The position numbers and the translations under genes are program-made. Source: Octopus vulgaris (Eukaryota). Taken from it: a DNA stretch of 64,000 bases. Under the pieces are notes generated by a model. The model saw nothing but the letters and a program-made list of their open reading frames with translations, ran no database searches and was not told the origin of the DNA. Of this stretch, positions 1 through 14,330 are shown in pieces. Position 1 is the stretch's first letter. Each line of letters starts with the position of its first letter. The stretch spans positions 10,230,001-10,294,000 of the forward strand of contig OX597821.1 of assembly GCA_951406725.2 (NCBI GenBank), in the 5' to 3' direction.

Positions 1-735
1 GCAATATTCCACATGATTTATAAACGGTGATTAAATACTGGGTGGAAAAACTGTGTTGGGCAGTTGCAACAGCAGCAGCAAAAACGGCAGCTCCAACACC
101 AGCAGCAAAAACGGCAGCTCCAACAGCAACTACAACAATAACTGCACTAACAGCTACTGCAATTAATGTTGAAGAAGTCTGAAAATAATTCAAGTTATTC
201 CTCTATAGCAGAATTCATTTATAACCCAGAAGATACTACTGTTTCTGCACATTTTGGAAGATACGAAGAAACCTTCGAAAAGGATGTAAAAATTGGACTG
301 ACAAGAAAAAAGTGCGACTACATTTAAGAAAGTTATCCCCTGCCGAATATGAAAAAATACTTCAATCACATTTTGCTGAAAGAACCTGGTGAGATTCGTT
401 TCGATGAAACTATTAATGCTTTATCGAAAATTTTCAGTTAAAGAAGTTCCCTATTCAATACTCGCTGGCAGTGCTTGAATTTAGAAAAGAAAAGAGCATG
501 AAAATTTCGACATCTATGCTGGGGTTGTTAAAATAATGTCTGAAAGATTCAAATTAAATCAACTCTTGACTTGTGAAATGTTTAATTTTTGTCCTAGAGC
601 AAACACTGAAATTAAAAATGCAGATATGCGTTCCAGGATATTAAGAAAATTAGAATAGGACCAAAATTTAAGAGATGGGGAATTATGTACATTATTTACA
701 ATTGACGGATATTTGTTTTCATCTTCCTTGTTGTT

Positions 736-781
736 AACGCAACGTTTCGGCTGATATATCCTCCAGATTTCATCAGGTGTC
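736..781 (-). ncRNA. Minimal type I hammerhead ribozyme relic
   Basis: Minus strand reads GACAC-CUGAUGA-AAUCUG GAGGAUAUAU CAGCC-GAAA-CGUU-GCGUU. Core intact, stems I and II partly mismatched, palindromic AACGUU stem III. Confidence 0.6.
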
Positions 782-819
782 TTGGGGAAATTTTGAACCT
801 GGGTTCGAAATTTCCCCAA

Positions 820-865
820 GACGCCTGATAAAGACTGGAGAATATATGAGCCGAAACGTTGCGTT
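820..865 (+). ncRNA. Minimal type I hammerhead ribozyme relic (core mutated)
   Basis: GACGC-CUGAUAA-AGACUG GAGAAUAUAU GAGCC-GAAA-CGUU-GCGUU. Stem I pairs; the core has G>A (CUGAUAA). Confidence 0.5.
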
Positions 866-2595
866 AACAACAAACAAGATGGAGACAAATATCTATCAAT
901 TTTAAATAATGTACATAATTCTTCATCTCTTAAATATAGAACTGAAAAAAAAAAAAAAATTATTACGCAAAATGGGCGTCTCCAGCAGTTTATGTCAATA
1001 AAAAATAATAACATCCAACAGTTTTAATCGGATGTTTCATGCCATATAATTACCTGTTACCAAGTGCGGAAGAAATTTTTGCGAAGTTGAATGAGGAATT
1101 TTTCTTTCAAGTTTAGAGCTATCTGAGGCATACATGCAGTTAGAAGTTGCTGAGAAATGTTCAAAAGTGTTGACGATAAATACCCATAAGGCATTGCATA
1201 AATTTTATCCACTTCATTTTGGTATAAAGTAGCACCAAACATTTTCCAACAAGTTATGGGCATACTACTCTCAGGTTCGAATTTCGCTATAGTTTACCTT
1301 TAAGAGAGACGTATATAAAAGTGAATCTCGTGACCAGCAAGCTGAGCATGTTTCAAAGCTCTTCGAAAAAATTAATGATCATGGTATAAGCTCAGTGATA
1401 AATTGTGTGAACTTTTTATGAGAAGAATAAAATACCAGGGCAGACTATCGGTGAAAATGGACGCAGACCAGACCCGTCAAGAAAAAATATGACACTCCCG
1501 AAAAACATTACAAGCATTTCGGGGCCCCGCAAAATATGAGCACCGTTGTATAACAATCGAATATTAAAAGAATACCATACTGGATATCCAGTAATTTCTA
1601 GGATGAAGTGTCTTATGAGGAGTTATGTTTACTGGCTGAAAATGGATCTAGATATTGAGACGTTGATAGACTGCTGCTGCGGTTGTGCTTTTGTAGCGAA
1701 TGCAACAGCTTTGAAATTTTAACCTTGGTCGAAAGCCAATATTCCATAGATCAGGTTACACATAGACTTCGGAAGACCATTAAGTGGATCATATTATCTA
1801 ATAATGGTAGATAGCTTACAGAATGACCAGAAATGTGTAAATGTAAAAAGTTTACCTCTACTATAACTGGATTTTCTTTTTTGCACGGTATGGGCATACC
1901 GCGCACTATAGTCTCCAAGAACGGCACACAATTTACAGCGAATGAATTCAAGAATTTTTGCAAGTGGTACTCATTTGAACATATCACTACTCCTCCGTAT
2001 CACACATGATCAAACGGATAATCTGAACGCTGTGTGGAGTTGTTCAGAATGGTACTGCCTAAATCCAGAAATGAATTAGTGGATGATGTAACCTTGACAC
2101 AATTCCTGAGAGTTAACCGTATAAAGCCAAACCCAAATACTCTTTCAGACGAATCACTCGCTGAACTGATGTTCGCAAGAAAAATTAAGTTAATTTTTGA
2201 CAATTATAACAGAAAAAGAAAAACTAGGGAAAACACTAAAAAGTACCACAGAGTATTTAAAAACTGGTGATAATGTGTTTTCAGAGTGAATAGAAATGGA
2301 AAAGAAGTTGAGAAGACGGTAAATAAAACGGATCGATAAAATGACGTATATATATTCTGAAAGGGTCATAAAAGATACATAAATGAGATGAAAAGAATAT
2401 TGCTGCCGAAAAGTTTACAATGTAAAAAGTAACCATGGACGTTTTCTGCGATATTTTTGATCTCCAGATTTCATAAGAAGTCGGTGAACCAAATTGTACT
2501 TATACTAAAATAAGAGAACATAGAGTATATTTGGAGTGAGTTCCAAAAAAAGAAACTTATTCATTTCCAACGAAAGTCAATCTCACAAGGTGAGA

Positions 2596-2803
2596 TGTGG
2601 TCAGAGACACTAACATACCTGTGTGTTTAAAAGAGGAACTCGTCGAAATCATAAAAAGAGTAACGTGTAAAGTTGAGACGACAAAGATCGTTTTGAAGTC
2701 TCGTGCAGTAGTAGTAGAAGTACGTCGTGTGAAGACATTACCTTAGCGCTACTTTGTTAAATCATGAATCCAAACGTAAATCAATAAAAAGGATATAATC
2801 ACA
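2596..2803 (+). repeat. Putative 3' LTR of the Gypsy remnant
   Basis: Starts TGTGGT after a purine-rich stretch (AAGGTGAGA), ends ATCACA (inverted TG..CA termini), AATAAA at ~2783, lies just downstream of the integrase remnant. Confidence 0.6.
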
Positions 2804-2929
2804 TATCGATATATGGTTTTTATGTAAAAGACAACCGTAAAACTTGAAATAAGCATTAACAAATGCAAATTTTTGTATCTAAATGTAATGATAAGCGATA
2901 AGGTACATATCAGTTCATACATTCCAGTC

Positions 2930-3058
<129 letters not shown>

Positions 3059-5092: not shown

Positions 5093-5680
5093 TTGCGGTG
5101 AAGTGACAGAGCACGCCGGGCAGAATGCTTAGCGGTATTTCGTCTGCCGCTACGTTCTGAGTTCAAATTCTGCTGAGGTCGACTTTGCCTTTCATCGTTT
5201 CGGGGTCGATTAAATGAGTATCCGTTACGCACTGGGGTCGATATAATCGACTTAATCCGTTTGTCTGTCCTTGTTTGTCCTCTCTGTGTTTAGTCCCTTG
5301 TGGGTAATAAATAAATAGGTATTTTTCTGCCGCTACGTTCTGAGTTCAAATTAGGCCGAGGTCGACTTTTCTATTAATCCTTTCGGCGGTCGATAAATTA
5401 AGTACCAGTTACGCACTGGGGTCGATGTAATCGACTTAATCCGTTTGTCTGTCCTTGTTTGTCCCCTCTGTGTTTAGCCCCTTGTGGTCAATAAAGAAAT
5501 AAGAATGCATAGCGGTATTTCGTCTGTCTTTATTTTCTAAGTTCAAATTCCACCGATGTCGATTTTGCCTTTCATCCTTTCGGGTTTGATTACTTTATGT
5601 ACCAGATGTATACTGGTTTCGATGAAATCGACTGGCTCCGTCCCACCAAAATGTCGGGCCTTGTGTCTAGAGCAGAAAAT
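5093..5680 (+). mobile_element. Tandem cluster of three SINE family A units (tRNA-like head plus GTCGACTTTGCCTTTCATCCTTTCGGGGTCGAT central domain)
   Basis: B-box-like GAGTTCAAATTC at ~5159, ~5342 and ~5540, each followed by the same central domain. Homologous to copies at 35276, 59607 and 63711. Confidence 0.85.
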
Positions 5681-12073: not shown

Positions 12074-12251
12074 ATACTGCATATTATTATTATTATTATT
12101 GAGAAGAGGAATAAAAAGAAGATGAGGAAGAAGAGGGGGGAATACGAAGAAGAGAAAGAAGAGAAAGAAGAAGAACAAGAAGAAGAAGAAAGAGATCAAA
12201 CAGAAGACGAAAAATAAGAGGAAGCAGATTACTTCAACTAACTGAATTATC

Positions 12252-12449
12252 GACGGATATTTGTCCTCATCTTGTTTGTTGTTAACACAACACTAATTTA
12301 GCATTATTTTATAAAAGTATAACTTTTACTTGATATTAAGATGGCAGATTAGTGTGAAGGATTTAAGATACTTTTAACTACAAACAAGGTGTGTTAACAA
12401 CAAACAAAATGAGGACAAATATCTGTGGAATTTAAATAATGTAAATAAT
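12252..12449. repeat. Inverted repeat homologous to the outer arms of the 666-935 foldback, with unrelated centre
   Basis: GACGGATATTTGTCCTCATCTTGTTTGTTGTTAACACAAC (12252-12291) versus TGTGTTAACAACAAACAAAATGAGGACAAATATCTGT (from 12390). Confidence 0.8.
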
Positions 12450-12459
12450 ATAAATAATG

Positions 12460-14330
12460 TACACTTACAGCAGTTTTGGTTTTTAATTGCCACGTACTAA
12501 ATATCTCAGTCTCAAGGTCCTAATATTTCAACTTTGTTCGGACCACTTTGCTGAAATAGCACTGTCATATCATTCACCATACATTTTCATGTCCTTAGTC
12601 TTTAATAACCATGTCTGGTCTGTTAGCTTTTCTTTGCCTATCTGTTTGTATCAGATAATCCCATAGAATGGTAACATTCTCTCCCTCAGTGACTGAATCT
12701 GGATGGTGCGAATACTAGGTCTTTGGGTGTGGAATAACATAGTGACGGCAAGTATTGGCCAAACTCTACCATACCTGGTTTTATATTCTATAAGGGCTTG
12801 GACTGAGCAACCGTGTGGTCAATACTCTCCAGTTTATCATTGTGTTTTCCGCATTGTCTGCAACATTTGCTCAGTAGTTACCAGAGAAGTGGCTCTGATA
12901 TTCATTCGCAAGGTAAAACTTTCTGTTGCAGCTTTCCAACCAGTATTCTGTAACCGTTAATGACTTCTCATATCTACATCAGTTCCCATAGCTCGTTTGG
13001 TGAATTGAACATGCACTGGTTTTTCTTGCCACAGTCTCGATATGGCTTTTGGTTTACACATTTTGCTGCCTTAGAGCGTGGTGTGTCCACCTTGTCATCA
13101 TCATCAAGGACGCTAAGCACTCGTTTGTATTTATCTGATGTCTCCTTTGAGACTAAGTGTATTCACTCTCTCTATTCGTGTTGCCTTACCATCAATATCA
13201 TCCAGTTTCTATTATTTTGGATGTATAATTGGAGTCATAAGTGGTACGTTTTATAGGACGTTTCAAGTCGGCTTAAGACACTGCTGCCTTCCTTTCGTAG
13301 GTAATAGAGTCTGTGGACCACTGATTTTTGGTGGTGCATCATATCTAGTGTCAGCAGTTTCCTGGTCTTTATGTCCATACGCTAGAATTCACTCAGATTC
13401 CAACGGATGACATTCATACTATACTGGACCAATAGTACATCCAGGGTTTTTATAGCTGCAATGCTGCTCAGTTTTCAGGATAATTCCGACAAGTCTATAA
13501 TACTATTTCCTGATCATTGCTTTCATTGATCTGTGTCTAGGCTAAATTCCATATTTTATGACATCATTTAATATTATCACAATTACTAGTAGTCCTTGCA
13601 GCTCCCTGTCATATTTTCCATTTAATTTCAGGTCATTCATTCAGAGTAAATGTGAGATTATATTTTCAGACATTATGTGGTGTGATTTGTTCTATTCAGT
13701 TTAAAAGACAAGGAAATGAGGGAATCAGAAGTGGAGAGGAGTAATTGATTCGCCTTGAAATATTTCTCGGCTTATTTCGTTATGTGAATTAGCAATTTTC
13801 GAGTAGCATCCGGTTTATTAATAACTTGTCTTTGCAACCGTGTATGATTCTTTTGCACCATCATTGTTCACAGAGAAGGATGTTGTTTTCATCGAAAAAG
13901 TGGTACATTCTTTCGATGAGGATAGATGTAAATATTTTGTACATGGTAGACAAACAAGCGATCCGCCTGTAGCTTTTTTGGGGTTTCATGTGTCGCTTGT
14001 TTTAGTGAGTAGCTAAGATATCGCTAATGTTACCAACCATGGATTGTCTTCAGAGTTTCTGATGATATTAGAGAAATATTGCATTGACAGAGGGTTTGGT
14101 AATGAGAGACTAATAATCCAGAAGTTTGGGATTTTATCATGCCCAGGAGATTTCCACTTACGATTTTTAGATAGAGCTTGAGTCAGTTCATGCATCGTAG
14201 CAACGTTCCATCATTGATCTTCAATATCGGCGTTTCTTTCTTCTCTTCCTACCCATTCGGTTCCCTTGTTGAATTCCATTATATTGCTCCACATGCTTTT
14301 CTAAAATGTCACTACTTATTTTATATCAGG
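12460..14330 (-). mobile_element. Older, degraded R4/Dong-like LINE RT fragments
   Basis: 'KWKSPGHDKIPNFWI' (ORF 14013-14195), 'YRRIACLSTMYKIFTSIL..FDENNIL..EQ' at ~13870-13970, and a post-RT 'HQKSVVHRLYYLRKEG' motif at ~13290-13335. Confidence 0.7.

What the first reader, a model, noticed from the sequence alone, without database searches (positions are those of the whole stretch)
666..944. 270-bp foldback carrying back-to-back hammerhead ribozyme motifs, one per strand
Seen: 134-bp arms with a 2-nt loop, inserted in a Gypsy gag. Each arm reads stem I-CUGAURA-stem II-GAAACGUU-stem I', pointing outward from the centre. Both copies are damaged at different positions, so an intact ancestor can be reconstructed (GACRC CUGAUGA A GGCUG..CAGCC GAAACGUU GYGUU). 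Established: minimal type I HHRs with palindromic stem III occur in Penelope terminal repeats, and these repeats are often inverted. Inference: this may be a non-coding unit mobilised by Penelope machinery, whose transcript from either strand is a rod-like RNA with a ribozyme.
Basis: partly seen in the sequence, partly recalled or inferred. Interest (0 to 1): 0.75.

Follow-up and report, generated by a model that had tools for sequence, protein, structure and literature searches.

The report
Mirror-image Penelope retrotransposon end fragment
This hairpin is two back-to-back copies of the end piece of an abundant, protein-coding Penelope-type jumping gene, a layout typical of that gene class; its two damaged hammerhead ribozyme motifs are likely inactive, and the interest lies in the parent element, whose tRNA-like segment may serve as its promoter.

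Summary
The foldback is real: 134-nt arms, 88% complementary, each with a damaged minimal type I hammerhead. It is not a non-coding unit of its own. The arm is the terminal-repeat end and likely coding start of a Penelope/Poseidon-type retrotransposon: it follows the RT-endonuclease ORF in 22 of 30 copies and encodes a peptide matching the N-terminus of an intact relative. The exact core occurs 4,108 times; the exact centre at only 2 places. Typical inverted pairs have one short and one tailed arm (92 of 99) and ~12-bp target duplications (57 of 80), as known for Penelope. This copy is atypical: both arms carry tail, share four variants, and replace 740-880 bp of a decayed Gypsy-like element, which fits a cDNA fold-back. 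The parent repeat carries a tRNA-Arg-like head, absent from this copy, at which 39 of 45 head-bearing copies begin; Pol III transcription is untested. The scan reported this family before on other DNA.

The parts
666..799 (-). Left arm: inverted copy of the Penelope terminal-repeat end / likely ORF start, carrying part of the tail and lacking its last ~10 nt
   Evidence: open frame on minus 559-1023
736..781 (-). Minimal type I hammerhead motif; core intact, first two stem II pairs broken; predicted inactive
795..806 (.). Centre: a short hairpin (5-bp stem, 2-nt loop) that already exists in the parent element, just after the likely start codon; likely fold-back or annealing point
   Evidence: sequence; same site in linear copies; same centre in L039
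802..944 (+). Right arm: Penelope terminal-repeat end / likely ORF codons ~4-51, ending at the distal (tail) end of the family
820..865 (+). Minimal type I hammerhead motif; G8-to-A in the core, two stem II mismatches; predicted cleavage site after 860; predicted inactive
915..944 (+). Tail: the ~30 nt between the short and the long 3' end of the family (start approximate)
   Evidence: loose ends at both positions; PMC11167929, PMC3846280
666..671 (.). Left junction microhomology with the host element (5 of 6 nt, TTAA exact); no target duplication
66..671 (+). Host: decayed gag-like part of a Gypsy-like LTR retrotransposon (many stops and frameshifts)
   Evidence: only a weak Pfam hit, DUF7083 E 0.035; 'gag' is recalled, not tested
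945..2270 (+). Host: decayed pol-like part resuming after a 737-878 bp gap; starts with an expanded A-run (right limit approximate)
   Evidence: Integrase_H2C2 E 1e-7 at 1540-1719 and rve E 2e-6 at 1827-2006

Best explanation
The foldback is a short, inverted insertion of the end of a high-copy, protein-coding Penelope/Poseidon-type retrotransposon, likely made by that element's own reverse transcriptase and endonuclease and now likely an inert relic. Shown: the parent reads ORF stop, 33 nt, tRNA-like head (~75 nt), (AAT)n, ~25 nt, ATG, then the arm with the hammerhead motif, then the tail; in L135 and L138 the arm's frame runs on into the RT-endonuclease ORF. Shown: most inverted copies have one short and one tailed arm, independent 5' ends, and a ~12-bp target duplication. 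Inferred for the family: both nicked target strands prime reverse transcription, one at each of two internal start sites, and the two cDNAs are joined in the middle by short complementarity. Inferred for this copy (about 55% within this explanation): one cDNA primed at the distal site stopped at the small hairpin 795-806, folded back, copied itself for 134 nt and joined the target ~850 bp away through TTAA microhomology, which accounts for the two tails, the four shared variants, the symmetric centre, the deletion and the missing target duplication in one event. The hammerheads are passengers of the terminal repeat; in the parent they would cut the element's RNA as a dimer or with protein help, but here both are mutated and would be masked by the antisense arm.
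For: Arm downstream of the endonuclease-like ORF end in 22 of 30 copies, head in 27 of 30. 569-aa frame with RVT_1 E 2.7e-6; 51 longer relatives, most with RT plus PF28514 and PF26215; P0003 (847 aa) aligns from residue 18 to the arm frame of L135. 4,108 exact cores, control 0; inverted arm within 2.6 kb for 60 of 99 cores. 92 of 99 pairs are short plus long/mid, 5 short-short, 2 long-mid, 0 long-long; among the 57 pairs not picked by the window query 52 are short plus long/mid. Direct repeat of 10 nt or more at the outer ends in 57 of 80 pairs against 2.8 of 80 in shuffled pairs. The short arm reaches further 5' in 23, the long arm in 11, within 8 nt in 9 of 43 close pairs, which one cDNA copying itself cannot give. 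Window arms share 4 non-CpG variants of 9 and 10, the most of 99 pairs; 0 of 302 other arms carry 3 or more of them. Gap of 737-878 bp in 5 of 11 host-element copies that show both sides. Literature: dual opposite-strand minimal hammerheads 100-700 bp apart from truncated PLEs (PMC4209133); inverted pLTR, tail on one end, TSD, palindromic junctions (PMC3846280, PMC8557442); two RT starts and hammerhead inside the ORF start (PMC11167929).
Against: No intact full-length copy was fetched; the start codon is inferred. Pfam, NCBIfam and PDB gave no GIY-YIG hit for the C-terminal part; that domain is called from the motif in relatives and from recall. Rfam detects no hammerhead. The window copy departs from the family rule (no short arm, no TSD), and its four shared variants are equally explained by later conversion between the arms. 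Samples of cores and heads come from the first listed places on one contig and are biased to intact motifs. Twin priming is an inference from genomic pattern; PMC3846280 prefers self-priming on an antisense template.
Confidence: 0.85

Rival explanations
1. Same Penelope origin, but this copy began as an ordinary short-plus-long insertion with a TSD and was remodelled later by DNA repair: the left arm was rewritten from the right arm, gained the tail, and rejoined the host element ~850 bp upstream. This rivals only the route of formation.
For: Four shared variants found together in none of 302 other arms; L039 shows that the same centre can occur in an ordinary short/long pair; microhomology at the left junction; total divergence of each arm from the family majority (9-10 of 81) is twice the mean of 5.4%.
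Against: Private changes per arm (5 and 6 of 81) match the mean family divergence, so the two arms split at about the time of the main wave; only 304 of thousands of arms were sampled, so a diverged source copy is not excluded.
Confidence: 0.3
2. One reading: a dedicated non-coding 270-bp foldback (retrozyme- or viroid-like rod RNA with a working ribozyme) that Penelope enzymes move as a unit.
For: All 40 scored top hits of the query are compact foldbacks; some junction positions recur in 2-4 copies; family reads with opposite-strand joints are present in RNA runs.
Against: Those 40 were selected by likeness to the query out of 4,548 candidates; junctions differ between copies; copies with the same junction share at most 0-2 variants; the exact centre occurs at 2 places, one a 30-nt remnant; the arm is coding; each transcript has one damaged motif, predicted to be paired to its antisense.
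Confidence: 0.04
3. The short copies, this one included, come from a separate tRNA-headed SINE that borrowed the Penelope end, not from the coding element's own RNA.
For: The head motif occurs 3,735 times against 788 for a motif 10-30 nt upstream; 39 of 45 head copies begin at -7..+1; tRNA-derived SINE-like repeats with hammerheads are known in Schistosoma (PMC2770079, passages).
Against: The same head lies directly behind the ORF stop in 27 of 30 coding copies, so no separate element is needed: reverse transcription primed ~270 nt from the RNA's 5' end would run off at the head. The window copy has no head, so its source cannot be told.
Confidence: 0.15
4. A MITE or foldback DNA transposon with long terminal inverted repeats.
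For: Long inverted arms, high copy number, ~12-bp target duplications.
Against: Ends are unequal in 92 of 99 pairs, the centre is variable, and the arm is colinear with an RT-encoding element.
Confidence: 0.01

Closest known systems
Penelope/Poseidon clade of EN+ Penelope-like elements, e.g. PAc of Anolis (PMC11167929, parts 1-2 of 4 read) and Adineta Pen2a (PMC3846280, passages read)
   Same: Single ORF with RT then C-terminal endonuclease-like part; terminal repeat includes the ORF start; hammerhead inside the first codons; inverted truncated repeat at the 5' side; ~30-nt tail on one end; TSD of about 10-12 bp; palindromic junctions.
   Different: This family's repeat carries a tRNA-Arg-like segment and an (AAT)n tract ahead of the ATG; the passages read describe TATA/Inr-like promoter motifs instead. 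The window copy has tail on both arms and a target deletion.
Minimal type I hammerheads of metazoan PLEs (Cervera and de la Pena 2014, PMC4209133, parts 1-2 of 4 read)
   Same: 5-bp stem I, extra base before stem II, G10.1-C11.1 pair, palindromic 15.2-16.2, no real stem III; pairs on opposite strands 100-700 bp apart were already reported.
   Different: Both window motifs are mutated; cleavage triplet is GUU; activity untested. That paper found no monomer cleavage and low dimer cleavage.
Non-LTR retrozymes (bioRxiv 10.64898/2026.07.22.740005, part 1 of 5 read)
   Same: Short PLE-related repeats with type I hammerheads.
   Different: Retrozymes are head-to-tail tandems with at least two same-strand ribozymes; this is an inverted pair with one motif per strand.
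Schistosoma Sm-alpha / Sj-alpha SINE-like elements (PMC2770079, passages read)
   Same: tRNA-derived sequence and a hammerhead in one short repeat (applies to the parent family, not to the window copy).
   Different: Described as non-coding SINE-like repeats; here the head sits inside the terminal repeat of a coding element.

Membership tests
EN+ Penelope-like element, Penelope/Poseidon clade | Single ORF with a PLE-type reverse transcriptase | tested here: met
   569-aa frame with RVT_1 E 2.7e-6, just under the curated cut-off; DKG, GxAMGSPxS and YVDD motifs in copies; 51 relatives, many of 750-850 aa
EN+ Penelope-like element, Penelope/Poseidon clade | C-terminal GIY-YIG endonuclease | tested here: inconclusive
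   No Pfam, NCBIfam or PDB hit. Copies read VYSIPCSCGRLYKGET, colinear with GVVYRIPCECGKVYIGET in relative P0015; naming it GIY-YIG is recalled
EN+ Penelope-like element, Penelope/Poseidon clade | Pseudo-LTR that contains the ORF start, in direct or inverted arrangement | tested here: met
   Arm both after the ORF (22 of 30) and at its start (L135, L138; P0003); inverted partner for 60 of 99 cores
EN+ Penelope-like element, Penelope/Poseidon clade | Tail at one end only and a short TSD | tested here: met
   Family: 92 of 99 pairs, TSD in 57 of 80. The window copy itself does not meet it: partial tail on the second arm, no TSD
EN+ Penelope-like element, Penelope/Poseidon clade | No zinc-finger-like linker between RT and EN (separates it from Neptune/Nematis, PMC8557442); clade placement by tree | tested here: inconclusive
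   No such motif seen by eye in the linker; no tree with named clade members was built
Minimal type I hammerhead | CUGANGA and GAAA core, stems I and II, G10.1-C11.1, palindromic stem III | tested here: met
   Met by the family majority and by intact copies (fold of L041); other repeat families of this genome keep the core with different stems I and II. Not met by either window arm
Minimal type I hammerhead | Self-cleavage | not testable with these tools
   No read starts or ends pile at any place in 3 fragmented, unstranded RNA runs; uninformative
Non-LTR retrozyme | Head-to-tail tandem units with two or more same-strand hammerheads | tested here: not met
   Inverted pair, one motif per strand
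tRNA-derived SINE | tRNA-related head with A and B boxes | tested here: inconclusive
   Absent from the window copy. Parent family: head aligns at 49 of 77 columns to tRNA-Arg(TCG), z 8.4, best of 35 distinct tRNAs from 30 loci of few isotypes; ARAGORN 0 of 16 loci; no Rfam tRNA hit; A/B box wording is recalled
tRNA-derived SINE | Non-coding element separate from its autonomous partner | tested here: not met
   Head and arm are part of ORF-bearing copies
tRNA-derived SINE | RNA polymerase III transcription | not testable with these tools
   Indirect only: start pile-up and no shared TTTT on the sense strand
MITE / foldback DNA transposon | Fixed, equal termini and uniform length | tested here: not met

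The most novel reading that the evidence does not exclude
The parent is a protein-coding Penelope retrotransposon that captured a tRNA-Arg gene as an internal RNA polymerase III promoter, lost all sense-strand TTTT terminators over ~2.6 kb, and acts as its own SINE: reverse transcription primed at two internal sites ~240-270 nt from the RNA's 5' end yields thousands of short inverted insertions by twin priming, with rare cDNA fold-back products such as this window copy.
Probability: 0.35. Interest if true: 0.7.

Novelty: new variant of a known kind. Interest (0 to 1): 0.42.

Why it matters
The window copy alone is an ordinary, decayed Penelope fragment of a kind already described. The family matters for two reasons. 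First, how Penelope elements form inverted insertions is open; the short-plus-long rule (92 of 99 pairs), TSDs and either-order 5' ends give genomic support for twin priming at the two start sites measured in vitro for PAc, and they define a direct test. Second, a tRNA-derived segment inside the terminal repeat of a coding retrotransposon, marking where most copies begin, was not found in five literature searches; if it is a Pol III promoter, a protein-coding mobile element would be transcribed by the tRNA polymerase.

Tried and rejected
Rfam on window 1-3000 and on an intact copy: no hammerhead or tRNA family at E up to 10. ARAGORN on 16 head-bearing loci: none. Sequencing runs: no RNA holder listed on record as RNA. 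Three raw RNA runs of one study (organism B, which may not be the window's species) gave 7,139, 5,093 and 4,741 family reads, equal on both strands, 62-68% running on into unrelated flanks, with no pile of starts or ends: this fits read-through of genomic copies and says nothing on a promoter or on cleavage. On the window itself, run X21 has no depth on either flank, so expression and editing of this locus are untested. Contigs of X16 and X18 cover 450-695 with 4 differences, but reach only 30 letters into the arm, under the tool's 31-letter bar for bridging. A Dong/R4-like LINE as the partner was considered (ORF upstream of the arm in 4 loci) and rejected: those joins occur at the shared (AAT)n tract. 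The pile of 5' ends at +72..+77 is partly an artefact of long AAT tracts and was not used; several ends called at -14..-20 are palindromic junctions at the head start over-extended by BLAST. No LTR pair of the host element was found upstream. L271 and L273 first looked like foldbacks in the same host family; L273 is a solo arm matched by both window arms. TTTT test results against my reading: L121 has 3 runs (3.9 and 2.8 expected), L122's zero is not significant under the Markov model (P 0.28), and only 1-6 copies cover the first 1 kb. Supplements of the papers were not read; they may list mollusc hammerhead families or this repeat.

Full report
Observation. Each arm holds an outward-pointing hammerhead-like motif. 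The right one has G8-to-A in the core and two broken stem II pairs; the left one has an intact core but has lost the first two stem II pairs. Rfam sees neither these nor an intact copy.

Copy number and layout. The 270-bp query gave 4,548 candidates, and the 40 scored are all compact foldbacks, a selection effect. An exact core pattern matches 4,108 times, control 0. Of 99 distinct cores taken from the first listed places, 60 have an inverted arm within 2.6 kb, at very different spacings (both arms of a pair count when both cores are exact). The window's exact centre occurs at 2 places, and the second is a 30-nt remnant without arms. So the foldback is not a fixed unit.

The parent element. 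One locus had a Penelope-like ORF end running into an arm. Searching with it gave 4,980 candidates, 150 scored. In the 30 loci returned, the arm follows the stop codon in 22 and a tRNA-like head in 27. The order is stop, 33 nt, head, (AAT)n, short linker, ATG, arm. L121 holds a 569-aa frame with RVT_1. In L135 and L138 the arm stands at the front of the ORF and its frame runs on into it. An intact 847-aa relative, P0003, begins with a peptide (TPDDGRRSNWPKRCVNN) that aligns with the arm's frame from residue 18. The arm is therefore the terminal-repeat end and the likely first ~50 codons, with the hammerhead inside them, as reported for PAc (PMC11167929, parts 1-2 of 4). The GIY-YIG label rests on motif likeness to relatives; profile searches gave nothing.

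The ribozyme motif. Core and stem II are exact in 83 of 304 arms, but in only 17 of 168 arms not chosen by the core pattern, as expected for old neutral copies (mean non-CpG divergence 5.4%). Other repeat families here keep the same core with different stems: a looser pattern gave 1,486 matches against 8 in the control, a mix of this family's mutants and others, and 20 fetched loci of the others show their own stem I and II pairs, no tRNA head and no PLE ORF nearby. Cervera and de la Pena described this minimal motif, its low activity, and opposite-strand pairs 100-700 bp apart (PMC4209133, parts 1-2 of 4). A transcript of the window foldback carries one damaged motif and its antisense, which is predicted to pair with it, so it would not cleave.

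How inverted copies form. Of 99 inverted pairs, 81 are long-short, 7 mid-short, 4 ORF-continuing-short, 5 short-short, 2 long-mid and none long-long; 42 pairs come from the query-selected loci and 57 from others, with the same pattern. A direct repeat of 10 nt or more (one mismatch allowed) flanks 57 of 80 long-short pairs, against 2.8 in shuffled pairs (1 of 81 dropped for lack of the end motif). In 43 close pairs the short arm reaches further 5' in 23, the long arm in 11, and 9 are within 8 nt. Paired arms share 13.5% of their variants against 4.5% for random pairs, maximum 8.4% in 1,000 shuffles. I infer two reverse-transcription events per insertion, from two start sites, often on the same source; PAc cuts and extends both strands and has two starts that bound the tail (PMC11167929). 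PMC3846280 (passages) describes the same layout and favours self-priming, so the mechanism is not settled.

This copy. It is one of the 2 long-mid pairs, both selected by the query itself. Its arms share four non-CpG variants, the most of 99 pairs, and none of 302 other arms has three of them. Its centre is a small hairpin of the parent. Of 11 other copies of the host element, 5 show both sides and hold 737-878 bp between the junctions; the left junction has TTAA microhomology, the right one TG and an expanded A-run; there is no TSD. One fold-back of a single cDNA with a microhomology join explains all of this (about 55%); later repair-driven rewriting of the left arm (about 30%) or two distal starts on one diverged template (about 15%) remain. 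The host has integrase zinc-binding and core hits downstream, in line with a decayed Gypsy-like element; it is broken by many stops.

The tRNA-like head, outside the window copy. It aligns best to tRNA-Arg(TCG), 49 of 77 columns, z 8.4, among 35 distinct tRNAs of few isotypes; ARAGORN and Rfam do not call it. A head motif occurs 3,735 times, a motif just upstream 788 times. Of 45 head-bearing copies, 39 begin at -7..+1 and 6 carry the upstream sequence. Among cores whose copy reaches that far, 22 of 36 stop within 17 nt around the head start, 0.036 per nt against 0.005 inside the head. A small hairpin also lies at this spot, so fold-back or annealing there is a rival to a transcript end. Following a lead from earlier notes, I counted TTTT runs: none is shared by 30% of 42 copies, 19 T-runs against 785 A-runs in 53 kb, and 0 in near-full-length L138 against 3.6-5.8 expected (P 0.03 under a Markov model); two other LINE ORFs are not depleted, but L121 is not either. 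This is suggestive only. RNA runs could not test it. Five searches found no paper describing such a head in a PLE (listings only, plus passages of PMC8557442, PMC13282606, PMC2770079 and part 1 of 5 of bioRxiv 10.64898/2026.07.22.740005); supplements and subscription journals were not seen.

Verdict. The window copy is an inert, slightly atypical product of a known class. The family is a new variant of that class because of its tRNA-like head, which eight earlier notes of this scan already reported on other DNA; I reached that reading before opening them. Interest 0.42.

Noticed in passing
window 12249-12291 and 12390-12460: A second, decayed inverted pair of the same family's arm ends, with the hammerhead part missing from the middle.
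   Followed up: partly
L050/L077, L051/L078, L058/L081, L071 (G000:C1): The 3' end of a Dong/R4-like LINE (723-aa frame with RVT_1; clade name recalled) is joined through the shared (AAT)n tract to the Penelope arm; other copies switch from the head to LINE or SINE sequence at the same tract.
   Followed up: partly
L282-L301 (G000:C1): At least two other T-rich repeat families with a minimal hammerhead core and 4-bp stem II, often beside microsatellites; no tRNA head and no PLE ORF in 20 of 20 loci; one inverted pair (L298). Possibly ends of Neptune-type elements (recalled, untested).
   Followed up: partly
arms across loci, position 38 after the ATG: A subfamily variant changes core U7 to A (40 of 297 arms), often with a second linked change; position 7 is the variable one of the hammerhead core (recalled).
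   Followed up: no
window 5122-5641: Three tandem copies, spaced 183-197 nt, of a SINE-like repeat.
   Followed up: no
L271, L273, and G000:C1:7949744-7956945 (L138): Other copies of the same Gypsy-like host family also carry or adjoin Penelope arms; not tested against chance.
   Followed up: no
L203 (G000:C12:25267077-25270148): Cluster of seven tRNA-Cys-like genes within 3 kb.
   Followed up: no
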